This document shows, in pieces, positions 8,686 to 32,528 of a DNA stretch of 64,000 nucleotides. Source of the stretch: a virus. The notes beneath the pieces are model-generated. The model was not told the DNA's origin, ran no database searches, and saw nothing but the letters and a program-made list of their open reading frames with translations. Position numbers and translations under genes: made by a program. The stretch lies in IMG/VR virus record IMGVR_UViG_3300045116_000678, positions 1-64,000 of that record; one strand, written 5' to 3'. Positions within the stretch are counted from its first letter, which is position 1. Each line of letters starts with the position of its first letter.

Positions 8686-11600
8686 CTACTCGGCCAGTGC
8701 CGCTCGCGTGCGCGCGATGTCCTCCCGCATCTGGGCGCGCATCGCCTTTGGCGCGGTGTCCGCGATCCGCTCGTCCTTGGACTTGCGCATCTCCTTGACC
8801 CTGCGCATCACGTCAGGAATCTTGATGACCATCGGCTGTTCGGGGTTCTTGGCATTCCAGTCCGCCACAGCGTCGCGTGCCTTCTGCACCTTCCCCGGGT
8901 CGTTTTCAAAGATTCCCTGCGCCCACTCGGCGCGGATCTCCTGGGCACGCATGTTGTAGAACGCCTTCGCGGTCTGGTTGATGCTGTTCGTCTCCTGGAT
9001 GTTTGAAACGCTGGCAGGCTGGAAGCCGATCGACTTCAACGCAGCTTCGAGCATGTTGGTGTCGAGCACCTTGTAGCCCTTGGCGTCGCGGTACATGCCC
9101 GTCGCTGCCATGTCAGCGCCCTTTGCGGCATTGCGCACAGCCGCCGGTGAAATCTCCAGCAGGCCTGCGCCGACGTTGCCGGTCAGCAGATTTTTGCCGC
9201 CGGAGAGGATGCGGCTGGCAAAGTCACCGGCCGGGCCCGCGATCTCCAGGATGTCGCGCGCATGGCTCGTTTTCTCCTGCAGCAGGCCGGTGCCCGGGAT
9301 GAGGTTGCCCATGCCCAGGCGGCCGGAGACGTCCAGCGGCGCGCCGGGCAGGCCGCTGATGCCCTTGTCGATGAACGCCGCCAGGCCCTTCGGCATGACG
9401 CTTTCCAGCAGTTCCTTGCGCGCCTTCTTCGTCGAGAAGTTGTAGCCGAGCATCTGCGCCAAGCCGTCAGCTGCGTCTTCGAGGTCTTCCTCGAAGGGTA
9501 GGCCGCCCGCGCCGCCCATGAGCATCAGCATGCCCAGCGCCAGCAGAGTCGCGCGTTTGCCCTCGGGCCCGCCCTGCGTGTACATGCGGTGGAGCAGCTC
9601 CAGATAGGCGACGGAGTAGGTCTTGAAGGTCATGAGCGTGCCGCCGACGGCGCCGCGCCCCCACTCCATCTTGTTGGCCTTGCTGTACAGGAACTGCGTC
9701 TCGGTGATGGCCTTCCGCGCGAACCCGGCCGGATCGGCGATGCCCTGCTCCTTCGCCGTGCGGTACGCGGCGATGAACGTGATGCGGCGATTCACCTGCT
9801 CAGCAGCCCCGAAGACCTTGCCCCAGGCCAGGGACAGGCGCGACAGTGCGTTCTGCCCCATGGCCCGCAGATCGCCAACGCGCGTTCCGTCTCCCGACCG
9901 CAGCGAGCCCGCGCCGCGCGCCTGTGCCATGAGCTGGTGCACCTCCTGCGGTGCCACGACGCCTTCGGCCTCTGCGCGCTTCAGCGCGGCAGCGAGTTCG
10001 GGCTCCAGTCCCTTGCCGCGCGACGCCACATCCTTCGCCGCGCGCCCCATTTGAGCGGCGGCCGCCTTCGTGCCGCCGTACTGGCTCAGCCACGGGAAGG
10101 TGACCTGCACCGGCTGCAGCGCGTTGACGAGCGCCGATGCGATCGACCCGCCCAGGTACTGGGCGAACAGCAGCCCGCGGACGGCCTGGGCCTCTTCCTG
10201 AGGGTTCTTGACGTACTCCGCCAGGCGGACCGCCGCATCCTTCAGCTGCCCCTGCTCCTTCGGAATGGCGTTCACCGCTTCGCCCAGGTCGCCCATGTGC
10301 AGTCCGGCGGCCGTCTGCCGCGCGTTGCTGTAGACGAAGGCGGCCAGCACCCGCCCGACGTCCTCGCTGAAGCCCGCGATGCCCTTGCGATGGATCAGCC
10401 GACGCATCGCGCTGCGGTTGGTCTTCGTGAGCTTCAAGTACTCCTGGAAAGCCTGGTCTTGGGCATTGGAGCCTGTCGAGTCGAGGCCGAGTGCATTGCC
10501 GAAGAGCTCCAACGTCTCCGGTGTGACGCCGGCGAAGAGCTTGAAGGCCTCGTCGGACATCGTGCCTTGCGACACCGCCGCGGCGCCGAACTCTTCACGC
10601 ATGCGGGCCGCCATGGCATTCGCCTCCCGCGCAGTCTCGAAGGTGCTGAAGTACTGCCGATCGCCATTGGCGTCCACCACGTCGACCGTGTACCGTCCGA
10701 AGCGCGACAGCGGCGCGTAGCCGCGGCCCTGGAGATCGCGCACCTTGTCGGCACGCTCGATGATGCCGTTGGCCGTGTTCAGCAGCATGGTGGCGCGGTC
10801 GGGATTGTCACTGGCCATCTGCACCAGGTGGTCGCGCAGCAGGAGCGCCGCCTCCTGCACGTCGGGCGCGTCCATGACGACTTCGCGCAGGCCCTTCGCG
10901 TCATCGCCTGCGAAGCGAAGCATGTCCGCCCGCGCCATGGTGTCAAGGCTGCGATCGGTCGACGCGCGGAACTCGCGGTAAAGCGAGATCTGCTCGGGCG
11001 TCAGGTTGAACTGGGACCGTAGCTCGTCGTCCGACCACACCACCCCGGGCTGCAGCATGCGCGACTCGTACCGGCTGTTGATGGCCTTCTCGTAGCTCTC
11101 GAGCGGCATACCCTGCCAGGCCCGGAGCATCCGCTCGTCGATCTGGCCATTGCGCAGCAGCCGCTGCGCCTTCTGCTCGGCCGTGTAGCCTGCGGCCGCA
11201 TCGATCAGCGATTGCACCGGTACTGCCTTGCCCTGTTCGTCCCTCGCCCATGTCAGCGTGCCCTCGAATACCGGCTTGGCGATGGCCTTGTTGTCGGCGG
11301 CAGCGACGGGCGACTTCTTGATGTCGCGCCAGGTTTCCAGCTTCGGCAGCAGCCGCGGCGCCAGCTCGGCGGCGTCGCTGGCATAGAAGCTCACATCGTC
11401 GACGAAGCCCTGCGCGGCGTCGAACACTCCCTTGAAGGCCGGCGACCGCTCCGCGAGGTTGTACATGGTGCCGACGGTCTTGTGCCACCACGACAGCTTG
11501 CCCGGCGCGCTGAAGGTCTTGTTGAGCTCCGCCGTTGCCCGCTGGGCGAAGTTCTTGACGGTTGAGCGGCTGAAGCGAGATTCAGGACCCATGTCAGTTT

Positions 11601-14600
11601 CGTCCGAGGGCTCGGCAGACGGCGCCGGCGCATTGCGAACGCTGCCGTCCGTTGCTACACTGGAGTTCTGCAAGCCCTTAGCGGAGCGGTATTCCCCAGG
11701 CAATTGGAGCCTGGTAGACCCGAGCCACTGAGGGCTTTGCTCTTTGTCAAGGTAGCGCAACTTGCCATCGTTTAGCCAGCGCTGAATGGCGCGCAGGTCG
11801 TCCTTCGGGTACAGGCTGGGCACGAAGTTGAAGGTCCGAGCGCCGCGCGTCTCCTCTGGGCTGATGGCCACCACCAACGGCTGGCCGCGCACCATCTCCG
11901 ACGTCACCGCCACATACCGGCCGGCCACCGAATCGGAGGCGAACACCATCACGGGCGACTCCAGCAGTTCGGGGATGCGCTTGAGCATCGACTTCGGGAC
12001 GCCGTGGTCGAACACCACCTTTGCGAGCACGGCGGGTGACGTGCGCAGTTCGCCGGCCGGGAGCCCCGCCGCCTGAAGTGCTGCCGAGGTATCGCCGATC
12101 GCCACCGGCCCACGTCCGGGCGCCTTGCCCGCCATGCCGTCGGCGATCGCCGCATCCACGGCCTCGTCGTAGCCCGCAGCTCGAGCGAACGCCGGTGCCG
12201 GCAGCGCGGTCCTGTTTGTGTGCGCCAGCCCGCGCTCGACATAGGCGCGCGCCGGCAGGATGAAGTTGCGCACGATCTCGTCATCGCTCATGCGCATGTT
12301 GCGGAAGCCCGGGACGTTTTCGCGCAACCAGCTGCGGATGGCAGCGATGGCCCGCCGCACGAAGTGCAGGTCGGGCGTGTTCTGCGCCATCTCGGCGAGC
12401 ACCTCCTCCGCAGCAATGCGCCGGTCCATGGCGGTCACGCCGCGCAGCCCGTATTCGGCGGCCTTGGCGTCGACCTCGGCGCGGCGCATGGTGGCGATCT
12501 GGTTGAGGATGTTGCCCAGGCCGGGCCCGAAGGTAGAGCGCAGGCCATGGTGTCCCAGTACCTCGTGGAACAACACGCGCGCGACGTCGTTCTCTGAGTG
12601 CAACTGCGACGAGATCAGGTACGCCTTGCCGCGGTAGTAGAAGCCCTCCGGGTCGCCTGCTGCGCCTCCGCTGCGCTGCTTCTGGTCGGCTCGGCGCACA
12701 GCCTCGGGAATCACCGGGTCGTTCATGTCGAACGCCACGACGACCTCCGGACCATTGGCCCAGGCGGAGCGGATCCTGTCGCTCGTACGGGTGACGGCCT
12801 GCACGGCCTGAGCAATCGCGGCTGGAGAGAAAGCCGGCGCCTCACCGCGTCGGAACATTGCGACGTTGCCGCCCTCCCCTTCGCGGGTCTGGATGGTCTG
12901 GACGAGACGCTCCATGGCGCGATTGATCGCTGCCCGTTCGACACCATGCGGGAACGGGCGCTTCACACCCCACGGGGTCAGGATGCCCGCGTTCTCCGGC
13001 CCGAAGTTCAGGAACGGGCTGCGGCCGCCCTGCGCGGCGATCTTGTCTTCTACGTATCCCTGGAAGGCGCGCGCCGCCATCTCGTGGGGCGTTGTCCAGT
13101 AGTCTTGGCCGCGACCCTGGTCGAGCTCCTTCGCATCCATGGCGAACTGCGTCGGCACCATGCGGGTCTTCTCGCTGTCCTGCTGGGCGTCCGCCAGCAT
13201 CTTGAGCCTGGCGCTGTACAGCTGCATCGCGCTGCGCAGCCGATCGAGCGGCCCGTTGTTGTCGGCGGAGAACCCCTGCCGCCCGCGCACCGCCTTCATG
13301 ATGGCGCTGATCTTCTCGAGCGCGTCATTCGTCCAGCGCATGCCCGCCAGGCGGCCGGCGCTGCCGGCTTTCGAGCCGAGCCGAAGATCGAGCGCAACAC
13401 CGTCCAGGATCTGCTGGGCCACCGTATCGAACTCGGCGAGCTGCTCGGTGCTGGCGGGCTTGTTGTGGCGCTTGTGGTAGCGCGCATCGAGCTCCTGCGC
13501 CAAGCCGCTGCGCACGCTGGCCAGACTCTGCTGGACTTCGCTCCGCGCACGGGCCACGAACTGGTCGGCCCGCGCCGTGTCTTCGACGTAGCCTTCCGCC
13601 TTCTTGGCGATCGTGCGCATCAGATCGGCATAAGCCTCTCGGACTTCGGCGCGCACGCCGGATCGCTCGCCGCGCAACCCGCCGCTCGCGGCGTCCTGTT
13701 CGAAGCTCGCGGAGGACTTGAGCGAGCGCGTTCCGTCCTTTTCCGTGACCCACTCGGCGGAGGCCTTGCCGTCCTGGCGGCCGAAGTAGTGGTCCATCGC
13801 ATGGAACCACTCGTGCGCCAGCGAGCCAGCGCCGTTCAGCTTCGTCAGGTTGATGACGGCCTTGGCGGGCTCGTAGTGCGCGCGAGCGCCGCTCAATCCC
13901 TGGCCGCGGGCACCGAAGGCTAGCGCGAGCTCGCCGTTCAGGCTGAGCGCGCGTGGCGGCACGCCCAGTACGTCTGCCAGGTCGAGCAGTCCATCGAAGG
14001 CGTCATTGAGCAACTGCTGCCGGTCGGCTTGGTTGTTCCAGTTGCCGAACTCCACGCCCCGGAAGCCGAAGGTGTCGATGAAGTCACCGTCCTTTACTTC
14101 ACCGGTCCGCCGCTGGGCGCCCTCGCGGCGCTGGTCCTGAGGGCGCGGCAAGTCGGCCTCGCCGAAGGTCGTGTTCGTCTCCACGATCTGCTGCGCGTGC
14201 TCAGCCATGTACCGCAGCGCCTCGTCGCGCGTGTCGAAGGTCCGGTCCACCACCTTCACGCGCTTGCGGTCGGTCACGTCGCGCCAAATCTCGTACTTGC
14301 CGCCGCCGGTAGGGATGGCCCGGTGCTTCAGCGAGACGGCGGCCAGGGGCACTGCGGCCTCCGCCTCCTCGCGCGTCGCGTAGGTGTCGCGAGCCACCTG
14401 TCGCGGCTGCTTGCGCCAATCCAGCGAGCGGCCGTCACGGATGACCCACCGGCCCTCCTCGCCCGGCTTGCTGCTACTCGCAATCTGCGAGATCTGGAAT
14501 CGGCGTGCCCACGTCGGCCGATCATCCTTCGGCGTGGCCGCTGCCTTCCGCTGGCCAGTCTTCTCCGCACGGTCCTTGCGGGCGCCGCCGATCTTCTCGC

Positions 14601-17130
14601 CAAAGTCTTCGATCTTGCCGCCGTCCGATTTGTCGGCCGTCTGTGCTACAGATTCCGTAGCATCAAGTCCCGGCTTGGCCGGCCGGGCGGGCTGCGTCGT
14701 GGGCTTCTTGAGCTGGTCCGACAGCGGCTTTTTGAAGCGACCCGAGGCCAACCCGGCCTTGAACTCCTCCACCGACATGGCAGTGACCGGGCCCACTTTC
14801 CAGCTGGCGTCGTAGCTGCCCTTGTACGCAGCGACCGCGTCCGCTTCGGTGTTGAAGCCGAAGAGCGCCTTCGCCTCGTCGTAGCTGCCGTCCGGGTTCA
14901 CTTGGTCGACCACGTAGACCGTGGGCGCGGTGGCGGCATGCGGGCCGACGAAGACGTCGACGTGGTCGCCGTCGGCTGCGAGGCTGCCCTTCACGTAGCC
15001 GTAGTGCGCCGCCATGGTGTTGGACCACTGACGGCCGTCGGGCGAGGTGCCGCTGCGCGTGCTGCCCTGCGGGTTTTCGATGCTGATGCGCAGACCCTGG
15101 ACGTCGGGCCCCGACAGGTGCCCGAGCTTGTAGTTGCCGGCCTCCTTCTGGGCCTGCGTGGGCTCGGGCCGCTCGTTCTGTGGGCTGGTGGCGGCTTCGT
15201 TCGCAGCCGCTGCGACCTGCTCGCCGGCGGCCTGGGGAATCTTCTCAACCGCAGCCCCGAAATCTTGCTGCTGCCCAATGACAGAGGCTGCCTGAGTGCC
15301 CTCCGGAATCTTCTCAACCGGAGGTGCAGCCACGGCCTGCGCGCGGCGCTGGCGCGCACGTGCGATGCCCTCCCGAAGGGTAGTCGGCGGCGACGCCGGT
15401 ACCGCGGGCGCGGGCGCGGGCGCGGGTGCGGGCGTCAACGCAGCGAGCTCCGCTTGCGCACGATCGCGCTCAGCGACGAGTCGGGCGTCCCAGCCATTCG
15501 CAGCAGCCTGCTGCCGCACAAACGAGAGGCGGCCCTGCAGCTCTGTTGCACGGTCCTGCGCCGCGTCGAACAGCTCGCCGGTCTCGGCATCCAATCCGCG
15601 CGTGGCGCCTACTGCTGCCGGGACCGGCGCCGGGGCCTTGGTTGCCGGCAGCTTCTTGCCCTTGGCGGCCGCCCGCTCGAGTTCGTCGGCCTGAGCCTGC
15701 GCTGCTGCTGTCGCCTGACGCGCCAGCAGGTCGGCATGTGCGCCGCCGTCGACGGCCTGCACTGCCGCTGCCGACAGCGTGCCGGCGTTCGGGTCGAGGC
15801 CCATCCGCTGCGACGGCAGTTCTCGCGCGGCGGTTCGGTCTGCTGCGGTCCGCGCAGTGCCGGCGGCGTCGACGTCGATCGTCGGTGCCGGCAGCGCCAG
15901 AAACGGCCCTTGCTCCTCCAGCCGAAGGTTGCCCGTGTCGATCTCGCGCCCAGGTTCGGCCGTCTCCACGAAGGGCAGACCGTCGGTAGGCGCCGCAGGC
16001 AGGGTCTGCAGCGGCGGCTGGCTGGCGGGATCGCGCGCATCGAAGGTGCGCTGGACGGCGCTAGGGTCGGCCGGCGGCAGCACGTCGCCCTCCGCTGCGG
16101 CCGCGGCCGGCGCAGCGGCGTCGGTGGGAACCAGCGACAGGCCGTCGCTCGGCTCGCTGGCAGCCGGGCCTACAGCAGGGTCTGCAGCTGGCGCTGCCGG
16201 CTCACGGGCACCGACACGATGCACGCCGGCGGCGCCGGCGCCCATGGTCGCGCCAGCCAGCACGCCCATCACAACGTTGTCGGCCAGGCCGTCGGTCCAG
16301 GGCTTGCCGAGCGCGAGGTTCTGCAGCACCTGCTCCGACACGCTCTGCGGCAGCTCTTCCAGCAGGCCTTCGCTGATGGCGCCCTCCACCATCTGGCGCG
16401 GCAGGCTCTTCGCCTCGGTGGCAATGGCCTGGCGCGTGAAGGCATCCTTCGCGCCCTGCGCAAGCATGGTTTCGGCATCGCCGATGCCCAGACGCTGCGC
16501 GATCCGGCCCGCCACCGCACCGAAGGCTCCCGTTGCCACACCAGTGGCCACCGCGGCGCCCGTTTGCGTCGGAGTCAGCAGACCATCCGGAGTTTCCTGG
16601 CGGATCTGCTCGGCCTGCGTGCCGGCCGCCGTGACGCCTTCGCCCGCCGCGCCAGCCAGTGCGGCTCCGCGCGCGCCCATGGCGCCCAGTCGCGTCGCCG
16701 TCATCAGGCCGCGCGCCGCGACACCGCCAGCGCCCATTGCGGGCAGCGACTCGCCGACGGCGGTGGCGATCAAGCTCGGGTTCTCGACGGCCGTGACCGC
16801 CTTGTCCACGATGCCGTCGGCCTCCTGGAACTTGCGCTGGGCAGCCTTCGTGGGTTCGGAGTACCAGTCGTTGGCGATGTCGCGTGCACGCTTCGGCTCG
16901 AACCCGACCTCCTCGAGCGCCTTGCCGGCGCGCCCGCCGGTGGCGATGTCGGCCAGGCCCACGACTGCTTCGGGAACGCCGACCGCGCCCTTCAGCGCGG
17001 TAACGCCGACGTCCCTCACGACATCCATGGCAGAACGGCTGGGCTCGGCTGGCTTGTCGAATTGGTCGAAGAAATTGCCAGACTTCTCTGACTTGGGAGG
17101 GTCGTACTGGTCGAAGAAGTTTTCTGCCAT
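8686..17130 (-). CDS. Giant polyvalent internal virion/ejection protein (InPase-like, LPD5, LPD1/metallopeptidase, MuF-C-like, PLxRFG domains)
   Basis: HYGYVKG..DGDHVDVF; IEDFGEKIGGARKD; GSLAHEWFHAMD; YWTTPHEMAARAF; LFHEVLGHHGL; GYAPLSRFG. Confidence 0.85.
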   Translation of the reverse strand: MAENFFDQYDPPKSEKSGNFFDQFDKPAEPSRSAMDVVRDVGVTALKGAVGVPEAVVGLADIATGGRAGKALEEVGFEPKRARDIANDWYSEPTKAAQRKFQEADGIVDKAVTAVENPSLIATAVGESLPAMGAGGVAARGLMTATRLGAMGARGAALAGAAGEGVTAAGTQAEQIRQETPDGLLTPTQTGAAVATGVATGAFGAVAGRIAQRLGIGDAETMLAQGAKDAFTRQAIATEAKSLPRQMVEGAISEGLLEELPQSVSEQVLQNLALGKPWTDGLADNVVMGVLAGATMGAGAAGVHRVGAREPAAPAADPAVGPAASEPSDGLSLVPTDAAAPAAAAAEGDVLPPADPSAVQRTFDARDPASQPPLQTLPAAPTDGLPFVETAEPGREIDTGNLRLEEQGPFLALPAPTIDVDAAGTARTAADRTAARELPSQRMGLDPNAGTLSAAAVQAVDGGAHADLLARQATAAAQAQADELERAAAKGKKLPATKAPAPVPAAVGATRGLDAETGELFDAAQDRATELQGRLSFVRQQAAANGWDARLVAERDRAQAELAALTPAPAPAPAPAVPASPPTTLREGIARARQRRAQAVAAPPVEKIPEGTQAASVIGQQQDFGAAVEKIPQAAGEQVAAAANEAATSPQNERPEPTQAQKEAGNYKLGHLSGPDVQGLRISIENPQGSTRSGTSPDGRQWSNTMAAHYGYVKGSLAADGDHVDVFVGPHAATAPTVYVVDQVNPDGSYDEAKALFGFNTEADAVAAYKGSYDASWKVGPVTAMSVEEFKAGLASGRFKKPLSDQLKKPTTQPARPAKPGLDATESVAQTADKSDGGKIEDFGEKIGGARKDRAEKTGQRKAAATPKDDRPTWARRFQISQIASSSKPGEEGRWVIRDGRSLDWRKQPRQVARDTYATREEAEAAVPLAAVSLKHRAIPTGGGKYEIWRDVTDRKRVKVVDRTFDTRDEALRYMAEHAQQIVETNTTFGEADLPRPQDQRREGAQRRTGEVKDGDFIDTFGFRGVEFGNWNNQADRQQLLNDAFDGLLDLADVLGVPPRALSLNGELALAFGARGQGLSGARAHYEPAKAVINLTKLNGAGSLAHEWFHAMDHYFGRQDGKASAEWVTEKDGTRSLKSSASFEQDAASGGLRGERSGVRAEVREAYADLMRTIAKKAEGYVEDTARADQFVARARSEVQQSLASVRSGLAQELDARYHKRHNKPASTEQLAEFDTVAQQILDGVALDLRLGSKAGSAGRLAGMRWTNDALEKISAIMKAVRGRQGFSADNNGPLDRLRSAMQLYSARLKMLADAQQDSEKTRMVPTQFAMDAKELDQGRGQDYWTTPHEMAARAFQGYVEDKIAAQGGRSPFLNFGPENAGILTPWGVKRPFPHGVERAAINRAMERLVQTIQTREGEGGNVAMFRRGEAPAFSPAAIAQAVQAVTRTSDRIRSAWANGPEVVVAFDMNDPVIPEAVRRADQKQRSGGAAGDPEGFYYRGKAYLISSQLHSENDVARVLFHEVLGHHGLRSTFGPGLGNILNQIATMRRAEVDAKAAEYGLRGVTAMDRRIAAEEVLAEMAQNTPDLHFVRRAIAAIRSWLRENVPGFRNMRMSDDEIVRNFILPARAYVERGLAHTNRTALPAPAFARAAGYDEAVDAAIADGMAGKAPGRGPVAIGDTSAALQAAGLPAGELRTSPAVLAKVVFDHGVPKSMLKRIPELLESPVMVFASDSVAGRYVAVTSEMVRGQPLVVAISPEETRGARTFNFVPSLYPKDDLRAIQRWLNDGKLRYLDKEQSPQWLGSTRLQLPGEYRSAKGLQNSSVATDGSVRNAPAPSAEPSDETDMGPESRFSRSTVKNFAQRATAELNKTFSAPGKLSWWHKTVGTMYNLAERSPAFKGVFDAAQGFVDDVSFYASDAAELAPRLLPKLETWRDIKKSPVAAADNKAIAKPVFEGTLTWARDEQGKAVPVQSLIDAAAGYTAEQKAQRLLRNGQIDERMLRAWQGMPLESYEKAINSRYESRMLQPGVVWSDDELRSQFNLTPEQISLYREFRASTDRSLDTMARADMLRFAGDDAKGLREVVMDAPDVQEAALLLRDHLVQMASDNPDRATMLLNTANGIIERADKVRDLQGRGYAPLSRFGRYTVDVVDANGDRQYFSTFETAREANAMAARMREEFGAAAVSQGTMSDEAFKLFAGVTPETLELFGNALGLDSTGSNAQDQAFQEYLKLTKTNRSAMRRLIHRKGIAGFSEDVGRVLAAFVYSNARQTAAGLHMGDLGEAVNAIPKEQGQLKDAAVRLAEYVKNPQEEAQAVRGLLFAQYLGGSIASALVNALQPVQVTFPWLSQYGGTKAAAAQMGRAAKDVASRGKGLEPELAAALKRAEAEGVVAPQEVHQLMAQARGAGSLRSGDGTRVGDLRAMGQNALSRLSLAWGKVFGAAEQVNRRITFIAAYRTAKEQGIADPAGFARKAITETQFLYSKANKMEWGRGAVGGTLMTFKTYSVAYLELLHRMYTQGGPEGKRATLLALGMLMLMGGAGGLPFEEDLEDAADGLAQMLGYNFSTKKARKELLESVMPKGLAAFIDKGISGLPGAPLDVSGRLGMGNLIPGTGLLQEKTSHARDILEIAGPAGDFASRILSGGKNLLTGNVGAGLLEISPAAVRNAAKGADMAATGMYRDAKGYKVLDTNMLEAALKSIGFQPASVSNIQETNSINQTAKAFYNMRAQEIRAEWAQGIFENDPGKVQKARDAVADWNAKNPEQPMVIKIPDVMRRVKEMRKSKDERIADTAPKAMRAQMREDIARTRAALAE

Positions 17131-17136
17131 CCCGCC

Positions 17137-17177
17137 AGTCTTCCGGCGGGGCGGCGGGAGGTCGAACCCTACAGGGG
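17137..17177 (-). promoter_or_regulatory. Late promoter copy 2
   Basis: Motif 17164-17177; -10 AAGACT 17137-17142; 6 nt to ATG 17130. Confidence 0.8.
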
Positions 17178-17214: not shown

Positions 17215-18285
17215 TCAGACAACTCGCAGATGCCTCGTCGGGGTTGTGCCCGGCAACGGCAAGAGTGTCCGAAGGTCATCCTGATTCCATGCCAACAGCT
17301 GACTCAAATCGGCCAAAGTGAAGTGCAATTTATCGGTGAGCGTCGAAAGCATCCGATTGAAGTTGCCCGTCTGTTCACGCTCGATCGGCTCAGGCTCCAC
17401 TTGCCGGATGCCCAACTGCGACACGCGCACAAACAGACTTTTCTTCTGCGACTCGGTTATTGCGCCCACTGCCTCAGCTCGAAAAATTAGCGCCTGTATC
17501 GAGATCTTCCAGTAGCGTTTGAACGCCAGCAGGTCCTTAACTTGCACACGAGGTAGCTTCGCGAGCTGAGGAGCAAGCTCAGCGGCCGGAACAAGGAACT
17601 CACCGGCGAACTCGTCTGCCTCCTCTTCCATTTGCTCGTGCGGCTCTCGATGCATGACCAAGTGCGCCAGCTCGTGAGCGAGCGTGAAACGCCAGCGATC
17701 ACCAGGGACCTCAGCATTCATGAAGATCAGTGGAGGCATACCAGCCAGTCGCAGACTGGTCGCGTCGACAGTCTTATGGCCGAAATCGCAGGAAATGACC
17801 ACGACGCCCGCGCTCTCGACGAGCGCAGTCAAGTTTTGCACTGGACCATCCGGAAGATTCCAATAGGCGCGCAGCGCGCGTGCCACCTTAGATGCGCTGT
17901 ACCCGTAGTCGTCAACACTCCACGCCGGCAACGGTCTCTTGGGAAGAATTTCGACATGCGGCAGCATTCGCTTCGTTGCCAAGCGCATGAGGTTCACAAC
18001 GCTGTGGATACGCTTCCGATCGGCCGCAGCGATGGTGGCCCGCTTTCGGTAGAAATAAGCGCTCGACCCAAAGCCCAAGAGCTTTTCGTCCTGTTCGAAG
18101 AATTCTCGAGGGAAGCGCAATGCGCTCACGAGCCTAGACCCCGCGTCTTCGTCCAAGTCGCGCTTCATGCCGGCTTCAATCCGTGCTACCTGAGCTTGGC
18201 TCAGCCCGGCCTGCCGCGCTAGTTCCTCTTGGCTCAACCCTCGGTGTTCACGAGCAAGGGTCAGCATCTCGCCGACAATCAACAT
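17215..18285 (-). CDS. XRE-HTH plus ImmA/IrrE Zn-metallopeptidase fusion (RmrA-like antitoxin)
   Basis: N-terminal LSQEELARQAGLSQAQVARIEAG HTH; RFTLAHELAHLVMH and EEEADEFAGEFLVP. Confidence 0.85.
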   Translation of the reverse strand: MLIVGEMLTLAREHRGLSQEELARQAGLSQAQVARIEAGMKRDLDEDAGSRLVSALRFPREFFEQDEKLLGFGSSAYFYRKRATIAAADRKRIHSVVNLMRLATKRMLPHVEILPKRPLPAWSVDDYGYSASKVARALRAYWNLPDGPVQNLTALVESAGVVVISCDFGHKTVDATSLRLAGMPPLIFMNAEVPGDRWRFTLAHELAHLVMHREPHEQMEEEADEFAGEFLVPAAELAPQLAKLPRVQVKDLLAFKRYWKISIQALIFRAEAVGAITESQKKSLFVRVSQLGIRQVEPEPIEREQTGNFNRMLSTLTDKLHFTLADLSQLLAWNQDDLRTLLPLPGTTPTRHLRVV

Positions 18286-18894
18286 TTAATCCGTCTTTCC
18301 TGGGAATCGAATGACCTCCCCGCCAGTCTGGCGAGGTTCGATTTCTGCCGGTTCCACTTCGTCAGCACCACCGCCGCTGGCTGGGAACAGGTCTGCAAGC
18401 ACAGTCGCAGAACCTCGGTGCGAGATCGAGATCGCCCAAGCATTTCCTTCACCCGCCGGGCAAGTCACCCGCACATCGACCACGTCGATGCCGAGGCTGT
18501 CTACAACGTACCCCAATTCCAGGTGGTGGGCGGCATCTATGCCGTCAAGCTCGATCTGTCCCCGAAACTCAGTGACCTGCACGGTGGGCTGGTTCTTGGA
18601 GCGATTGTCTTCATCGAACTTCTTAAATCGGATTGCGTAGCGGCCATCAAACACCAGGCCATGCATCAAGTTGCGCTTGAAGTAGCGGACGCCGGGAGTC
18701 GAGTCTGCATATGCGGACGCGCGGGTCAAGAAGCAATCGTGGACCAAAGATGCTCTGCTCCTTGCACTCATGGTGACCTGGAAGAAACTGGGCAAGCCCT
18801 GAACGTCGCCCCATGCCCCTCGAACCATGTCGTCGAGTGCGTGGAAATGCGACTGCAAGTCTTCGGTGGCGCGGTCCTGGTCAACGATCGACAT
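18286..18894 (-). CDS. Putative toxin partner of the XRE-IrrE protein (RmrT-like)
   Basis: ATG 18894 with GAGGA SD; abuts the XRE-IrrE gene; RFKKFD..N..T.Q...F..Q motif. Confidence 0.6.
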   Translation of the reverse strand: MSIVDQDRATEDLQSHFHALDDMVRGAWGDVQGLPSFFQVTMSARSRASLVHDCFLTRASAYADSTPGVRYFKRNLMHGLVFDGRYAIRFKKFDEDNRSKNQPTVQVTEFRGQIELDGIDAAHHLELGYVVDSLGIDVVDVRVTCPAGEGNAWAISISHRGSATVLADLFPASGGGADEVEPAEIEPRQTGGEVIRFPGKTD

Positions 18895-19046
18895 ATGGGG
18901 ATCCTCTGGAAGGGGTTGGCTCGATCGTACACCCGATTTAATTTTGTATGAAAAATATTCACAAAATAATTCGGTACCCCTTAGCCCCCCGGCAGCCTCG
19001 AGTCTTGTAACCCTGCTACATTTCGTTGCAACAAACCGGAGCGAGC

Positions 19047-19661
19047 ATGAGCACGTCGTTTGAGGACCTTGAACGCCGACCAGCGGCTGCAGTGCCCGCA
19101 CCGACCCTTCGCTTGGGCCGGCACGTGGTCGGGATGGCGTTCGCCGCCTTGGCCAACCCCATGCTGTACTTCGACAGCCGGCCGGTTTACCTGTGGGTCG
19201 CAACTTGGCTAGTCCCAGCGGTGGGCGCTGCATGCATCTTCGGGCTGCTCGCACTGTTCTTCACAGAGCGAGCGCGCCGATCCTGGCCCGGAAGCGCCAT
19301 CATGTTGGCCTGGGTGCTGCTGGTCCTGCTACTTGTGGGCAACGGGATGAACTTCCGACAGATGCAGCAGGACGCAGCCGCGGCGCGCACGGCCGCGGGG
19401 CTGAAACCTTTCACAGGGACCTTAGACACACCGCCAGCCCTAGCCGTGGCGCCACCTGCGCCTGCGGTCGACCCTGCCACTGCGGAGCACTACAAGCGCA
19501 TCTATGCCGCGCACCCGGACGCGAACGCTATTTCGGAGTCGCCGATGTTCCGTGCCTGGCTGGCTCGGAACTCCGATCGACAGAAAATATTCGATCAAGG
19601 ATCCACCGAAGCGGTGATTGCCGTCTTCAGCGCCTACAAAGCCTCTGCCGGTCGCGATTAG
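19047..19661 (+). CDS. 3-TM membrane protein fused to a scaffold-protein-like C-terminal domain (moron)
   Basis: GGAG SD; 3 hydrophobic segments; C-terminal 56 aa align with scaffold residues encoded at 31509-31691. Confidence 0.8.
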   Translation: MSTSFEDLERRPAAAVPAPTLRLGRHVVGMAFAALANPMLYFDSRPVYLWVATWLVPAVGAACIFGLLALFFTERARRSWPGSAIMLAWVLLVLLLVGNGMNFRQMQQDAAAARTAAGLKPFTGTLDTPPALAVAPPAPAVDPATAEHYKRIYAAHPDANAISESPMFRAWLARNSDRQKIFDQGSTEAVIAVFSAYKASAGRD

Positions 19662-21610
19662 GTCACGCCGGCGCGCTTTGCAGATCCGGGACCGAACTTG
19701 CTTTCGAACTCCGCCGCCCGCTTCGGATTGCTCTTGAGCGAGGCGATGGCTTCAGCGTTTGGCACCGGCCACTGTTGCGGCGCCTGGTCCACTCGCTGCA
19801 CGTCCCCCGTCTGCTTGTTGTACCGGTAGACGCTGCCCTCGGTCGTGCTGCCGTCGGCGTTCTTCACCGCCGGCGTCACCTGCACGCCCCACTCCGACGG
19901 CGAGGACTTGCCCTGGATGGCCAGCAGCGCCGTCTGCGCGCGCGTGCGATCGGCCACCGAGGCCTTTGGGTCGAGCACCGTACGACGAAGCGACGCTTCA
20001 TCCTGGGCCGCCGCGACCTGCGTGTCGCGCACCCGATTCTGGCCAGCGACCTCGTCGCGCCGGATCGCGTTGCTCTCGGCTGCGCGTCGATCCTCGGCGG
20101 CCACGCGCTGCGTTTGCAACTGCGCCTGCTGCTGAGCGGCGATGGCATCGCGCTGGGCCTGCGTCCGGAAGCCCAGATCGGCCCGCTGCGTCTCAGCCGC
20201 CTGTCGCCCCGCTTCCATATCCGCTGCCGCTCGTGTCTGCACCGGCAGCGCCGCGGCGGCAATCGCGCCCTGGTCTGACGAGAAGCCGCGGCGAGGCGAG
20301 AAGGCGCCGCGCGCCGCGGCAGTGCGCATCGCGGCGCCGTCGAACATCGCCTGCGCAGCATCGGGCCCGGGGTTGCCGATCACCGACATGCCGCCAGGCT
20401 GGAACCCGAGTCCGCCGCCGGTGGCGCTGCGCGCCGCCAGCGTGTTCGCCGCGGCCATGTTCTGCGCGCTCACGGCGCCGCCCGGGCGAAAGCCTCGTGC
20501 CGCCTCCGGAGAATCGCCGTAGCTGTTGCCCGACCGAAACACACCGGGTGCTACTTCAGCAGCAGTTGCCGGTGCAGCGGCTGCCGGCGCTGCAGCGACG
20601 GCGGGCGTTGCGGCCGCACTCTGCGCCGGGGCGGCCATAGGAGCCGCAGCGCGGGGCGCAGCGGTCGCGGCAGCTGCAACGGCTGGTGCCGCAGCAGGCG
20701 CCGCGGTTTGCGCCGCGGCCGGGTCGAAGCCGAGGCCGAGGCCGGCACCAGAACGCTGCTGGTCCATGAACGGCGTCAGCGAGGTGGGGTCGGCGCCCGC
20801 AGGTACGAGCTTGGGCGCCAACGGCGCGGCATCGATGCCGGCGGCGCGCATGCCGCGCACGACGCTCTGGTCGTAGGCGTTCGCGGCGATACGCGCCGGG
20901 TAGGTGGTGGCATCCAGGATCCCTCGCCCCACCTTTTCGTTGAAACCCTTGGCGGTGTCCCATGCGGCGCCCACGGCCGCGCGATCGGCGCGCACCTGTG
21001 GATCCGCATCCACGGGCGACGGTGCTGGGGCCGGTGCTGGCGCACCCATCGGTGCCGAGGCATACGGGCTGGGCGAGGGCTGCCGGTTGCCCGGGAAGGC
21101 GTTGTCCATGGTTGGGCCGGCGGCGACGCGCTGCGGCGCAGGCGCGGGGGATGGTGTGGCAATCTGCGTCGTGCCGGGCGTGCTGGCCGCTGCAGCGGCA
21201 TCGCCGAAGGCGTTCGGGCGCTTGCGCTCGTCGTCGACCAGCCCGCCGTTGGCGAAGAACAGCTCCGGGTTGAAGCCCATTGGCCCGGCCACTGGCGTGT
21301 GCGTGGCGTCCTTGGCAGCATCCAGCGCCTGCACGCCGATGGCGTGGACCTGCTCCGGCGGGATCTCGAACTCGCCGTTGCTCAGGTGCACGTCGACCTT
21401 GCCTCCCTTCGGTCGAAACCCGCGCGCGCCGCCATTGCCAGCGCGCCGGAGGGCGTCATCGCCAATCTGCTCCGTGGAGTCAGCGGGCATGATGTAGCTG
21501 CCCTGCCGGACAGGCTTCTCGATGTCGTCCGATGTGCCACTGCCGGGACCGCGAACAGGGCCGCCATCGGCGTAGCGGTTCTTGGAGTGTTGAGGATGGA
21601 ACCCGAGCAT
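19658..21610 (-). CDS. Internal virion/ejection protein
   Basis: ATG 21610 with AAGGA SD; YADGGPVRGPGSGTSDDI motif; Ala/Pro-rich; upstream of the giant ejection gene. Confidence 0.7.
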   Translation of the reverse strand: MLGFHPQHSKNRYADGGPVRGPGSGTSDDIEKPVRQGSYIMPADSTEQIGDDALRRAGNGGARGFRPKGGKVDVHLSNGEFEIPPEQVHAIGVQALDAAKDATHTPVAGPMGFNPELFFANGGLVDDERKRPNAFGDAAAAASTPGTTQIATPSPAPAPQRVAAGPTMDNAFPGNRQPSPSPYASAPMGAPAPAPAPSPVDADPQVRADRAAVGAAWDTAKGFNEKVGRGILDATTYPARIAANAYDQSVVRGMRAAGIDAAPLAPKLVPAGADPTSLTPFMDQQRSGAGLGLGFDPAAAQTAAPAAAPAVAAAATAAPRAAAPMAAPAQSAAATPAVAAAPAAAAPATAAEVAPGVFRSGNSYGDSPEAARGFRPGGAVSAQNMAAANTLAARSATGGGLGFQPGGMSVIGNPGPDAAQAMFDGAAMRTAAARGAFSPRRGFSSDQGAIAAAALPVQTRAAADMEAGRQAAETQRADLGFRTQAQRDAIAAQQQAQLQTQRVAAEDRRAAESNAIRRDEVAGQNRVRDTQVAAAQDEASLRRTVLDPKASVADRTRAQTALLAIQGKSSPSEWGVQVTPAVKNADGSTTEGSVYRYNKQTGDVQRVDQAPQQWPVPNAEAIASLKSNPKRAAEFESKFGPGSAKRAGVT

Positions 21611-21652
21611 GTTGTTTCCTTCGGCGGACGAAGTCCGCCCAGACTGAGCCCC

Positions 21653-21693
21653 ATCTTGGACTGTGGGCCTCAGGGGGGCGAACCCTAGAGGGG
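21653..21693 (-). promoter_or_regulatory. Late promoter copy 3
   Basis: Motif 21680-21693; -10 CAAGAT 21653-21658. Confidence 0.75.
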
Positions 21694-21695
21694 TG

Positions 21696-22721
21696 TCAGA
21701 GGCTGCTGCTGTCGTTACCGCTGATGGAAGCGCCGGCGCCAATGCCGTTCAGCGAGGCCGCCGCGGCGTCCGCAACCATCTTGGCGTGCGCGAGGGCCGC
21801 ATTCACGCGCTCGGTCAGCGTCTTGAGCTCGGCATCGAGGTTGGACCGCGAAGCGTCCAGCTTCAGCTGCGCATCGGTGATGGCAAGCCGCACTTTCGGC
21901 TCCAGCGCGGCCACCTCGGCTTGATACATCGCCGTGAGGCTGCGCGCGAGGTCGGTTTTCAGACCCACCAGGCCCGTCGCCAGCTGCATGGCAGTCTGTG
22001 GGCCCAGCACCAGCGTGCGGATGTAGTCGCCGGCGGCCGAGATGGCGCGCAGTCGAAGCTCGAGCACCTGCTGCACCGCGAACCGGGTGTTCTCCAGCTC
22101 GGCGCGGAAGGCGTTGATGGCGATGTCGCGGCTTTGCCCGGCCAGCTGGCGGCTGGCGTCGAGCCTGATGCCCTGCACGGCGCCTACCAGCGCACCAGGT
22201 GGAAGCGGGAAGCCGCGGTTGGCCCACGTGGCCATGGCCTCCGCCTCAGCCTGCGCGCTTTGCGCCAGGAAGCGGGCCTTGTCGCGCTCCCAGATCTGCC
22301 GCTCCACCTCGGCGTCGACGCCGGTGCCGCCGTCGATCGCGCGCTCCAGCCACGCCAGCGCCTTGTCCCAGAACGGCCCGGTGGGGAAGTTCTGCGACAG
22401 GAAGTCCTTGAAGCCCTGCTCGATCAGGTTCCCGATCTGCGCGTAGGCCTCGTCGTAGATCTCACGACCCTCTTCCGGGTCGGTGAGCGGCAGGTCGGGC
22501 TTCTCGGGCGGCAGATAGGAGGTATCCAGCACCGGCCCGGTGAGCTGCGGGGCATCCTCGGCCTCGGCCGCCGCGGCGTTGATGGCCGCGATCGCGTTGG
22601 TGAACCAGTTTTGCGCGTTCTCCCACTTGGCGTTGATGATGTAGGCGACGGTCGTTGGCGCTCCGACCCCGCCGCCTGGCTCGGGTACGGGGACGATGCC
22701 GCCAGGGGGTACGGTTGCCAT
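21696..22721 (-). CDS. Virion protein (helical; putative ejection/core protein)
   Basis: 341 aa in late operon; WANRGFPLPPG motif. Confidence 0.7.
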   Translation of the reverse strand: MATVPPGGIVPVPEPGGGVGAPTTVAYIINAKWENAQNWFTNAIAAINAAAAEAEDAPQLTGPVLDTSYLPPEKPDLPLTDPEEGREIYDEAYAQIGNLIEQGFKDFLSQNFPTGPFWDKALAWLERAIDGGTGVDAEVERQIWERDKARFLAQSAQAEAEAMATWANRGFPLPPGALVGAVQGIRLDASRQLAGQSRDIAINAFRAELENTRFAVQQVLELRLRAISAAGDYIRTLVLGPQTAMQLATGLVGLKTDLARSLTAMYQAEVAALEPKVRLAITDAQLKLDASRSNLDAELKTLTERVNAALAHAKMVADAAAASLNGIGAGASISGNDSSSL

Positions 22722-31274: not shown

Positions 31275-32357
31275 TCAGAGTTGCCGGTTCAGGAAAGCCT
31301 CGATCTGCGCGGGCGTCATGGATGCCATCCGCTCCGACATATCGGGGCCGCTCAATCCAGCGAGCTGCTCGTCCGCACTGAGCCCGGAGGGTCGGCCGCC
31401 CGGAAGGTCCGAGAGGCTGACCGGCACCGGCGTCGGTGCGGCTTGAGCCGCCGCCTTGGCCTGGGCCTTCACGTCGCCAGCGGGCGCCGTGTCGGCCTGG
31501 GCCGGAGCTCGTCCAGAGGACGCTTTGAAGGTGTCGAAGAGCTCGATGACCGCACCGGTGTCACCACCGGTCAGTACGTCGCGGTAGCCCGGCTGCGCGA
31601 ACTTGGGTTGCTTGGCAATCCAGTCCTGCAGCTCCTTGCTCTCGAAGATGGAATCGGCATCCGGGTGCGCCTTGTAGATCGCTTGGTAGTGCGCCTGGGT
31701 GTCGTTGGCGGCCTGCGACTGCTGGAAGGGCTTGAGCGCCTCCCCGACCTTCGCGTTCACCACCTCTGCCACCCGTGCCGCGACCTGCGCGTCCACCAGT
31801 TGCTGGATGCCTCTGGCCATCGCCTCCTCGGAGAAGTCCCCGAAAATCGCCGGGTCGACACCCTTGTCGATGGCCGCTTGCGCAGCCGCGACTTGGTTGT
31901 CCACCGCGGTCGGCGCTTGTCCCGCGTCGACGCGCTGCTGGGCTTGGGCCCTGAGGCCTTCCAACTCCTTCAGCGCGGCGGCGTGGGCGCTTTCGGCCTG
32001 TTCGGCCTTCGCCTTCCATTGCTTCTCGCCGTCCCGCGCGGCCACCAGCTTCTCGTACGGGATGGTGTGGACACCATCCTTCGCCTGGATCACCGTCTTC
32101 GACGGATCCTTCGGCTCGTCCAAGTCACCATCGGCGGCTGCCGCGGGCTTGCTCTCTTCCTTCGTCTGGTCCTTGACGCCGTCGGGGTTGGCTTCGCCTG
32201 CAGCAGGGGTCGCGTCGGGCTTCGCGTCCAGTTCCGGCTTGGTGCCGGTATCGCCCTGTTCGGCCAGTTCGAGGAGCTGGGCCGCCTGTTGCGGGGTGAG
32301 CGTGCCGTGCTCGGCGTGCTGCTGAATGAACTCGTCTTGTGCTGCTGTGATCGTCAT
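31275..32357 (-). CDS. Capsid scaffolding protein
   Basis: Acidic, coiled coil, KDGVHTIPYEKL; immediately upstream of the major capsid gene. Confidence 0.8.
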   Translation of the reverse strand: MTITAAQDEFIQQHAEHGTLTPQQAAQLLELAEQGDTGTKPELDAKPDATPAAGEANPDGVKDQTKEESKPAAAADGDLDEPKDPSKTVIQAKDGVHTIPYEKLVAARDGEKQWKAKAEQAESAHAAALKELEGLRAQAQQRVDAGQAPTAVDNQVAAAQAAIDKGVDPAIFGDFSEEAMARGIQQLVDAQVAARVAEVVNAKVGEALKPFQQSQAANDTQAHYQAIYKAHPDADSIFESKELQDWIAKQPKFAQPGYRDVLTGGDTGAVIELFDTFKASSGRAPAQADTAPAGDVKAQAKAAAQAAPTPVPVSLSDLPGGRPSGLSADEQLAGLSGPDMSERMASMTPAQIEAFLNRQL

Positions 32358-32528
32358 GCCTGTCCCGCCACATGTCGCCGTGGCCGCAAGGGGCAGCATT
32401 TGGGTGGCAGGCACGGGCCGAAGCCCGCGCCCACAGCCCTCCAGCTATGGGAACCTCCTCTCGGAGGCTTTGCCGCACCATCACGGTGGGGCGCTTCGCC
32501 TTCGGCTTTCGCGTCTGGCTTGGGCTGC

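What the first reader, a model, noticed from the sequence alone, without database searches (positions are those of the whole stretch)
19047..19661. Moron encoding a membrane-tethered copy of a domain of the phage's own scaffolding protein: candidate capsid-assembly decoy/sensor defence
Seen: this + strand gene sits between two ejection genes and encodes 3 predicted TM helices, a Pro/Ala linker, then HYKRIYAAHPDANAISESPMFRAWLARNSDRQKIFDQGSTEAVIAVFSAYKASAGR (19488-19655). That segment aligns with scaffold residues HYQAIYKAHPDADSIFESKELQDWIAKQPKFAQPGYRDVLTGGDTGAVIELFDTFKASSGR (31509-31691): 25/56 identical by hand, with one 5-aa gap. The scaffold's extreme C-terminal helix is not copied. Established: some prophage defences block virion assembly or sense structural proteins. 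Inference: a lysogen-expressed scaffold mimic could sequester portal, coat or scaffold of superinfecting relatives at the membrane, or act as a sensor coupled to a TM effector (abortive infection). Late minus-strand transcription from promoter copy 3 would run antisense over it and could silence it during induction.
Basis: partly seen in the sequence, partly recalled or inferred. Interest (0 to 1): 0.88.

Follow-up and report, generated by a model that had tools for sequence, protein, structure and literature searches.

The report
Periplasmic decoy mimicking phage ejection protein
A prophage gene wedged between two DNA-ejection genes encodes an inner-membrane protein whose tail most likely faces the periplasm and is built from look-alikes of the phage's own virion proteins, so it is probably a new kind of superinfection blocker rather than a capsid-assembly decoy.

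Summary
The gene at 19047-19661 (+) encodes three hydrophobic helices, a Pro/Ala linker and a 60-aa helical domain. That domain is 41% identical (E=1e-12) to residues 239-302 of the presumed scaffold protein.

The positive-inside rule puts the tail outside the cytoplasm in ten family members. In sister prophages the same domain sits behind cleavable Sec signal peptides and a 6-Cys domain.

The domain is also not a copy of this phage's own scaffold. It belongs to a separate clade of "exported" copies (SH-aLRT 97).

A new result came out of the comparison. In about 25 related (pro)phages this slot, opposite strand and convergent with the ejection gene, encodes modular periplasm-directed proteins. 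Their tails carry a short box of the same class as the two tandem boxes at the N-terminus of that phage's giant injected polyvalent protein. This holds in 18 of 20 phages by eye; a scripted permutation test on 17 gave p<=1e-5. The window is one of the two exceptions.

Best reading, at about 50%: a SieA-like DNA-entry block that works by mimicry. Gene position, size and helix count parallel P22 sieA, but there is no sequence homology. Function is untested.

The parts
19012..19031 (+). Conserved upstream element CCTGCTACATTTCGTTGCAA. It contains an extended -10-like TGCTACATT at 19014-19022 and is the putative own promoter of the slot gene.
   Evidence: The element is invariant in WIN, L009 and L003 although the flanks diverge. 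TG[CA]TA[CT]A[TG]T lies 25-40 nt upstream of the start in 14 of 23 slot genes, across all anchor types. Promoter activity is inferred only.
19038..19041 (+). Shine-Dalgarno GGAG, 6 nt before the ATG
   Evidence: Read directly from the sequence.
19047..19661 (+). Slot gene, 204 aa: three-helix membrane anchor, class-B box, P/A linker and scaffold-like domain. Its 3' end overlaps the 3' end of the convergent 694-aa gene by 4 nt.
19122..19349 (+). Membrane module: TM1 at residues 26-42, TM2 at 47-72, a cytoplasmic loop T-E-R-A-R-R-S-W-P, and TM3 at 84-101. Predicted topology is N-in, C-out.
   Evidence: Hydropathy and positive-inside counts in 10 family members. AF2 helices at 18-36, 45-75 and 82-117.
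19401..19427 (+). Short linear box LKPFTGTLD (class B, PFxGxLD)
   Evidence: The same class is found in slot tails and giant-protein N-termini of L004, L044 and L056.
19473..19655 (+). Five-helix domain homologous to the phrog_479 (scaffold-type) domain; member of the 'exported' clade
   Evidence: BLASTP E=1e-12. HMM E=3e-23. Model pLDDT 92. Tree placement.
31275..32414 (-). Presumed scaffolding protein (phrog_479), directly upstream of the major head protein gene at 29926-31221
31500..31721 (-). Scaffold copy of the domain (residues 232-305)
8686..17130 (-). Giant 2814-aa polyvalent virion protein (InPase 659-792, LPD1 1336-1416, MuF_C 1708-1800)
17056..17121 (-). Two tandem N-terminal boxes of the giant protein (ENFFDQYD and GNFFDQFD, class A)
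19658..21742 (-). 694-aa virion/ejection-type protein (phrog_11341), convergent with the slot gene. Its likely true start is the ATG at 21610.
17165..17177 (+). Late-promoter box copy preceding the giant gene. With the copy at 21681-21693 it brackets the moron island.
   Evidence: 9 copies in the window against 0.05 expected.

Best explanation
The gene encodes a small inner-membrane protein with three helices, N-terminus in the cytoplasm and C-terminal tail in the periplasm. It is transcribed on its own, opposite to the late virion operon. It most likely acts in the lysogen as a superinfection-exclusion protein that blocks DNA entry.

The tail is a string of modules that imitate parts of virion proteins:
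- a short linear box of the kind found in two tandem copies at the extreme N-terminus of the giant injected polyvalent protein;
- a five-helix domain descended from the scaffold-protein family.

Proposed mechanism (inferred): when a related phage ejects its internal proteins into the periplasm, the N-terminal boxes of the giant protein must engage a partner. That partner could be a host periplasmic or inner-membrane factor, or other copies of the same box in the ejection conduit. The resident decoy shows the same box and competes for or poisons that contact. The helical domain may multimerise the decoy, or may hold an ejection protein as the scaffold does in the procapsid.

Shown here: the anatomy, the recurrence in one slot, the exported clade of the domain, and the class match between slot tail and giant N-terminus.

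Inferred: the topology, expression in the lysogen, exclusion itself, and the partner.

In this window the tail carries a class-B box while the phage's own giant protein carries class A. If the model holds, this copy would act on class-B relatives.
For: (1) Topology.
- The TM2-TM3 loop has 2-3 K/R and no D/E in 10 of 10 family members.
- The short TM1-TM2 loop is neutral or acidic, and the N-flank is basic.

(2) The same tail modules follow classical Sec signal peptides (for example ...SLA|ADYATC) and a 6-Cys domain. This is seen in the same slot of L018, L021, L028, L032, L034, L045 and L047. They also follow other multi-TM anchors or signal peptides in P0007, P0093, P0112, P0125, P0133, P0135, P0139 and P0154.

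(3) Synteny. In all loci that reach both flanks, the gene lies between the giant protein and the 694-aa protein, on the opposite strand and convergent with the latter.

(4) Box mimicry.
- Giant proteins start with two tandem boxes of one of about 9 classes.
- The slot tail has the same class in 18 of 20 phages by eye.
- A scripted regex test scored 14 of 17; by eye 15 of those 17 match, because L005's box lies outside the scanned last 130 aa. The permutation mean was 2.4 and the maximum 10 in 100,000 permutations, p<=1e-5.
- Nucleotide identity of matched boxes is only 44-64%. The match is therefore kept at the protein level and is not a recent DNA copy.

(5) The boxes occur nowhere else in the 82.9-kb provirus.

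(6) Tandem boxes (KPWEEF x2) also head the giant protein of Pseudomonas Hollowayvirus E220, which has no slot gene. The boxes therefore serve the phage itself, and the slot protein is the add-on.

(7) The gene has its own conserved TGnTAcAtT element and none of the nine late-promoter boxes.

(8) Precedent in P22 sieA. It encodes 162-164 aa with three predicted TM helices and sits in the inner membrane. Escape mutations map to ejection proteins gp16 and gp20 (PMC10883804). The gene lies 22 bp downstream of ejection gene 16, on the opposite strand, with its own promoter.
Against: - No experiment and no RNA data bear on function; none could be obtained.
- Topology rests on the positive-inside rule and on analogy. 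TM1 is only weakly hydrophobic, and the first 15 residues after TM3 carry 1-2 K/R.
- The window itself breaks the class match (giant class A, slot class B), as does L006.
- The box classes were defined by me after seeing the data.
- No partner of the box or of the domain was identified. No ORF in the 20-kb loci co-varies with box class. Scaffold domains are nearly identical in phages whose box classes differ.
- There is no homology to SieA (hhalign probability 0.1%) and no PADLOC match.
- No -35 element was found, and the consensus promoter scan found nothing.
Confidence: 0.5

Rival explanations
1. First reader's model. A membrane-tethered cytoplasmic copy of the scaffold domain sequesters coat, portal or scaffold of superinfecting relatives, or senses them and triggers abortive infection.
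For: The domain really is homologous to the scaffold-family domain. Polar residues conserved in scaffolds (H..IY.AHPDAD, W, G, K) are kept in the slot copy. A shared binding function is therefore conceivable.
Against: - The tail is predicted to lie outside the cytoplasm.
- The same domain clade follows cleavable signal peptides and a 6-Cys domain in the same slot of sister phages.
- Many slot proteins lack the domain altogether and keep only short boxes.
- The slot copy is not derived from the resident scaffold.
Confidence: 0.04
2. A periplasmic sensor for abortive infection. The tail box acts as an intramolecular pseudo-ligand of the anchor module. The tandem boxes of an incoming giant protein displace it, and the membrane module then collapses the membrane potential or signals.
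For: The class match between tail and giant N-terminus fits a recognition device as well as a competitor. The RosmerTA-type defence pair lies immediately upstream and divergent.
Against: The anchors are not homologous between variants: three-TM, other TM modules, or a soluble secreted 6-Cys domain. A common effector or receptor function of the anchor is therefore unlikely. The soluble secreted variants have no membrane effector at all.
Confidence: 0.1
3. The protein is not a defence. It is a phage or lysogenic-conversion factor that uses the same boxes to bind a host envelope protein for another purpose, such as envelope remodelling, control of lysis or release, or protection of the infected cell during the lytic cycle. 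The helical domain would be only an oligomerisation module shared with scaffolds.
For: - The domain is invariant while box classes change, as expected for a generic multimeriser.
- Copies occur in multi-repeat secreted proteins, one of them with Sel1 repeats, that need not be phage defence.
- Expression timing is unknown.
Against: The position and orientation parallel sieA. The box class tracks the phage's own injected protein rather than staying constant for one host. The gene is absent from the Pseudomonas relatives, so it is dispensable for the core life cycle.
Confidence: 0.2

Closest known systems
P22 SieA (superinfection exclusion, inner membrane; PMC10883804)
   Same: It is a small protein (162-164 aa against 130-240 aa here) with three predicted TM helices and no signal peptide. 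Its gene lies just downstream of, and convergent with, an ejection-protein gene and has its own promoter. Its genetic target is the ejection proteins.
   Different: There is no detectable sequence relation (hhalign probability 0.1%). SieA has no scaffold-like domain, and I know of no report that it mimics an ejection-protein motif. Function of the protein here is untested.
phrog_479 presumed scaffolding proteins of F116-like and many other podophages
   Same: They share the ~65-aa five-helix domain with the signature H..IY.AHPDAD...W...G.T..VI..F..FK.
   Different: The slot protein has only this domain. It lacks the N-terminal ~190 and C-terminal ~75 residues. It carries the 5-aa deletion typical of the exported clade, is membrane-anchored, and is not next to the head gene.
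HK97 gp15, T4 Imm and Ltp-type lipoproteins (DNA-entry blocks facing the periplasm or cell surface). Recalled from my own knowledge plus the review PMC11436027 and PMC3952083.
   Same: They are prophage- or phage-encoded small envelope proteins that stop DNA entry of related phages. Ltp is a helical ectodomain on a lipid anchor.
   Different: No homology was tested or seen. None is described as carrying copies of the phage's own virion-protein motifs.
Colicin translocation domains with short Tol/Ton boxes (analogy only, from my own knowledge)
   Same: They have a disordered N-terminal region with short boxes that capture periplasmic partners during import. Competition by the same box blocks entry.
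   Different: They are bacteriocins, not phage proteins. The boxes here show no similarity to TolB or TonB boxes, and the partner here is unknown.

Membership tests
P22 SieA family | Sequence or profile similarity to SieA | tested here: not met
   hhalign of family alignment A1 against P22 SieA gives probability 0.1%, E=0.64. The only PHROG hit of the slot protein is phrog_479, through the domain.
P22 SieA family | Small inner-membrane protein with three TM helices | tested here: met
   Met by prediction only: hydropathy and AF2 helices. For SieA: 162-164 aa, three predicted TM, inner membrane (PMC10883804).
P22 SieA family | Gene adjacent to and convergent with an ejection-protein gene, with its own promoter | tested here: met
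   Window: 4-nt 3' overlap with the 694-aa gene. P22: sieA lies 22 bp after gene 16, on the opposite strand, with an annotated promoter. The promoter here is inferred.
P22 SieA family | Blocks DNA injection of related phages, with escape mutations in ejection proteins | not testable with these tools
   Needs phage challenge experiments.
phrog_479 scaffold-type proteins | Match to the conserved central helical domain | tested here: met
   BLASTP E=1e-12. phrog_479 E=2.5e-4 over profile positions 183-219. Domain HMM E=3e-23.
phrog_479 scaffold-type proteins | Full-length architecture (~320-380 aa, domain at ~190-280, C-terminal ~75 aa) and position upstream of the major head gene | tested here: not met
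   Only the domain is present. The gene lies 10 kb from the head gene on the other strand.
Exported clade of the domain (defined here) | 5-aa deletion relative to scaffolds, the IYAAHPDA(D/N) signature, the domain near the C-terminus, and a TM anchor or signal peptide upstream | tested here: met
   Alignments A2 and A3. Tree branch SH-aLRT 97 uniting 26 exported copies, the window's among them.
Known anti-phage defence systems (PADLOC-DB) | Profile match | tested here: not met
   No family at E<=0.01 for the slot protein. The neighbour at 17215-18285 matches RmrA at 2e-66.

The most novel reading that the evidence does not exclude
Giant injected polyvalent proteins of F116-like podophages carry an N-terminal 'address code'. 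It consists of two tandem short boxes, in at least nine interchangeable classes, that must engage a partner in the periplasm during DNA ejection. Prophages of this group have evolved a dedicated, modular periplasmic decoy. It has interchangeable anchors, a co-opted scaffold-family domain and one or more boxes, and it copies that code to shut out phages of the same class. Box classes would then define exclusion groups, and would make the first step of ejectosome assembly genetically tractable.
Probability: 0.35. Interest if true: 0.85.

Novelty: new variant of a known kind. Interest (0 to 1): 0.72.

Why it matters
How short-tailed phages get their internal proteins and DNA across the periplasm is poorly understood. 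For SieA-type exclusion proteins no contact site is known.

Here the sequences themselves point to one. A short box at the tip of the injected giant protein is copied, class for class, in a periplasm-facing protein encoded next to the ejection genes. If confirmed, that would give three things:

1. A simple, swappable specificity determinant for superinfection exclusion.
2. A handle on the first periplasmic contact of the ejection machinery and of polyvalent proteins.
3. An example of a head-assembly domain re-used outside the cytoplasm.

It also corrects an attractive but wrong idea, the cytoplasmic capsid-assembly decoy.

Tried and rejected
I stopped that step and redid the calculation by reading the sequences from the stored files.

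Searches that gave nothing:
- RNA runs: no RNA holder was listed.
- PDB by sequence: nothing for the domain or the scaffold.
- Fold searches: no PDB match for the whole-protein model or the domain model. The best VIA Z was 5.1 at rmsd 7 A, which is not meaningful. BFVD gives only uncharacterised podophage proteins of 250-370 aa (TMq 0.7-0.8, E>0.2).
- Pfam: nothing significant for the slot protein, the 6-Cys domain or the extra ~130-aa domain of L005/L033.
- The P0112 context scan found nothing. The metagenome scan added only short contigs.
- The consensus sigma-70 scan found no promoter.

Ideas rejected:
- The box binds the scaffold-type domain. Rejected because scaffold and slot domains are nearly identical in phages with different box classes.
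- The box match is due to recent gene conversion. Rejected because nucleotide identity is 44-64%.
- A phage-encoded partner co-varies with box class. None was seen among ORFs of the 20-kb loci (a crude test).
- The upstream element is a sigma-54 promoter. Rejected by eye, because the GG is missing and the spacing is wrong.

Full report
**1. The observation**

The window is part of an 82.9-kb IMG/VR provirus. It is 67% G+C and related to F116-like (Hollowayvirus) podophages. Its closest relative in the collections searched is a prophage of Xenophilus aerolatus, locus L009, with 91-98% amino-acid identity in the flanking virion genes.

The ORF at 19047-19661 (+) has a GGAG 6 nt before its ATG. 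The gene caller of the public collection starts it at Met30. The segment before that...LRLGRHVVGM..., is conserved in homologues, so 19047 is the better start.

BLASTP against the 379-aa protein at 31275-32414 (-) aligns residues 145-203 with 239-302. Identity is 41%, with one 5-aa gap, E=1e-12. These are the only two copies in the provirus.

The 379-aa protein is phrog_479 ('unknown function'). It lies directly upstream of the major head protein (phrog_334) and downstream of the portal (phrog_156). 'Scaffold' is therefore an inference from position.

The flanks of the ORF are:
- a 2814-aa polyvalent protein with InPase, LPD1 and MuF_C domains;
- a 694-aa protein of phrog_11341.

**2. Compartment**

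Ten members of the family were analysed. All have two strongly hydrophobic segments and one weaker one. The loop between the second and third segment, T-[KER]-R-A-[KR]-x-x-W-P, carries 2-3 K/R and no D/E in every member. The first loop is short and neutral or acidic. The N-flank is basic. By the positive-inside rule the protein is N-in, C-out, so the tail is periplasmic.

Independent support came from a profile search with the domain alone against 1.84 billion representative proteins. It found 2235 clusters. Most are 320-380-aa scaffold-like proteins with the domain at about residues 190-280. Among the best 150, however, 11 carry strongly hydrophobic segments:
- several unrelated multi-TM anchors;
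- a classical signal peptide followed by three to four copies of the domain;
- a signal/anchor with two copies plus Sel1 repeats.

In IMG/VR contigs, the same slot of sister phages encodes proteins with a textbook Sec signal peptide (...A-x-A|ADYATC...). This is followed by a domain with six conserved cysteines, then the scaffold-like domain, then a short tail.

A tail that is secreted in those phages and sits after the third helix here is best read as periplasmic.

**3. Origin of the domain**

All membrane- or signal-peptide-linked copies share the 5-aa deletion relative to scaffolds and the signature IYAAHPDA[DN].

On a tree of 99 domain sequences, 26 exported-type copies form one group (SH-aLRT 97, branch length 0.46). 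This group includes the window's copy. The window's own scaffold lies elsewhere on the tree (70 columns, quick search).

The slot domain is therefore a long-standing paralogue, not a recent copy of the resident scaffold.

With a 66-row alignment AlphaFold2 gives a compact five-helix bundle (pLDDT 92). No solved relative was found.

**4. The slot**

In every related locus that reaches both flanks, a gene of this kind lies between the giant protein and the 694-aa protein. It is on the opposite strand and convergent with the latter.

The anchor varies between loci:
- the window's three-TM module (L003-L009, L056-L060, P0002-P0006, P0130);
- other TM modules (L014, L015);
- a signal peptide plus the 6-Cys domain.

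The scaffold-like domain is optional in the three-TM family and constant in the signal-peptide family. Upstream cargo differs. In the window it is a RosmerTA-like pair, with RmrA matching at E=2e-66. In L009 it is two unrelated ORFs.

In Pseudomonas Hollowayvirus E220 the two flanking genes abut and there is no slot gene. The gene is therefore an insertion relative to that backbone. The window copy has GC3 of 0.73, against 0.85-0.93 in the structural genes.

**5. The unexpected part: box mimicry**

The tails end in short motifs, and the same motifs head the giant protein. Every giant protein examined begins with two tandem copies of one short box, followed by a conserved segment (...KGAVAVPEAVVGL...).

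The classes seen are:
- [FY]FDQ[FY]D
- PFxGxLD
- DWE[KR]G
- WWKxG
- NPF[AT]DPDYG
- [FI]SYE[DE]x
- SEIxDxLKxAP, with the variant EVDAFLED
- FDPxTAK
- KPWEEF, in E220

The slot protein's tail carries the same class as its own phage's giant protein in 18 of 20 phages by eye.
- Matched: L003, L004, L005, L007, L008, L009, L014, L018, L021, L033, L034, L036, L042, L044, L047, L056, L059, L060.
- Exceptions: the window and L006.

A scripted regex test on 17 loci scored 14 matches. By eye 15 of those 17 match, because L005's box lies upstream of the last 130 aa that the script scanned. Permutations gave a mean of 2.4 and a maximum of 10 in 100,000, p<=1e-5. After collapsing identical class combinations the score was 10 of 13, with the same p.

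Caveats: I defined the classes after seeing the data, and related phages are not independent. Even so, eight classes each show at least one match.

Matched boxes are only 44-64% identical in DNA. The match is therefore held at the protein level and is not a recent copy.

The boxes occur nowhere else in the provirus or, apart from one chance hit in L048, in the fetched loci scanned up to that call.

Scaffold and slot domains are nearly identical in phages whose box classes differ. The box is therefore not read by that domain. No ORF in the 20-kb loci co-varies with box class.

The window's slot tail has LKPFTGTLD (class B), while its giant protein has ENFFDQYD and GNFFDQFD (class A). Its close relative L009 has class E in both. 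Both elements have thus been exchanged between two phages that are otherwise about 95% identical.

**6. Expression signals**

A 20-nt element, CCTGCTACATTTCGTTGCAA, lies 15 nt before the start codon. It is invariant in WIN, L009 and L003, although the sequence upstream of it is unrelated.

Its core, TG[CA]TA[CT]A[TG]T, reads as an extended -10. It is found 25-40 nt before the start of 14 of 23 slot genes of all anchor types.

The nine copies of the late-promoter box AACCCTAnAGGGG all face the other strand. Two of them, at 17165 and 21681, bracket the island.

So the gene very probably has its own promoter. When that promoter is active is unknown, and no RNA run could be listed. Antisense read-through from 21681 is possible, since no terminator-like site intervenes.

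**7. Explanation**

The closest precedent is P22 sieA. Its product is 162-164 aa with three predicted TM helices and sits in the inner membrane. It blocks DNA injection, and escape mutations map to ejection proteins gp16 and gp20 (PMC10883804). Its gene lies 22 bp after ejection gene 16, on the opposite strand, with its own promoter.

There is no sequence relation to the family here. This is an analogy of form and position, not membership.

My reading is as follows, with about 50% confidence for the exclusion function:
- The protein is a prophage-encoded block of DNA entry. Its periplasmic tail imitates the tip of the injected giant protein.
- It thereby competes for, or poisons, the first periplasmic contact of the ejection machinery.
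- The scaffold-derived domain either multimerises the decoy, matching the tandem boxes of the giant protein, or holds an ejection protein as scaffolds are thought to do in procapsids.

My separate estimates for the underlying points are about 85% that the tail is periplasmic and about 95% that the box match is not chance.

Their odds are given in the Rival explanations section.

**8. Limits**

- There is no experiment, no expression data and no identified partner.
- Topology is by rule and analogy.
- The co-folding tool, the contig look-up and the Atlas were unavailable.
- The window copy itself is one of the two mismatches, so its own target class is a prediction.

Noticed in passing
window 17215-18894 (-): The 356-aa HTH plus peptidase-M78 protein at 17215-18285 matches PADLOC RmrA (E=2e-66). 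It is translationally abutted by an upstream 202-aa protein of no family at 18286-18894. Together they look like a RosmerTA-type toxin/antitoxin defence pair, carried as a moron divergent from the slot gene. The pair is absent from the closest relative, L009.
   Followed up: partly
window 17056-17121 (-); L061 3863-4132 (-): Giant polyvalent virion proteins of this whole phage group start with two tandem copies of a short, class-variable box before a conserved segment. This includes Pseudomonas Hollowayvirus E220, which has KPWEEF twice. I found no description of it in the papers searched.
   Followed up: yes
window 32700-33806 (+): A second opposite-strand gene lies inside the head module, between the scaffold and portal genes. 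It encodes 368 aa with a lipoprotein-type signal (…WLASC…) and has no Pfam, PHROG or PADLOC match. It could be another envelope-directed moron.
   Followed up: no
L005 9941-10783; L014 9224-10375; L033 13992-15053: Some slot proteins carry an extra ~130-aa domain (…WW[VI]..G.VW[IL]HV.N…C…) between the anchor and the tail. It has no Pfam match.
   Followed up: partly
proteins P0093 and P0139: The scaffold-family domain also occurs in three to four copies behind a signal peptide, and in two copies fused to Sel1 repeats. These come from low-GC organisms and may lie outside phage slots. They suggest a wider extracytoplasmic use of the domain.
   Followed up: no
window 1892-1909 (-) and provirus 70338-70355 (-): Two near-identical ORF starts (MCTRYIPPEMRELEDFWQIGAGKRMP…) lie 68 kb apart in the provirus. 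They may be a duplicated or split host gene at the element's borders.
   Followed up: no
window 8669, 17165, 21681, 28176, 32557, 34344, 40088, 41018, 41941: Nine copies of AACCCTAnAGGGG occur against 0.05 expected by chance, all in one orientation.
   Followed up: partly
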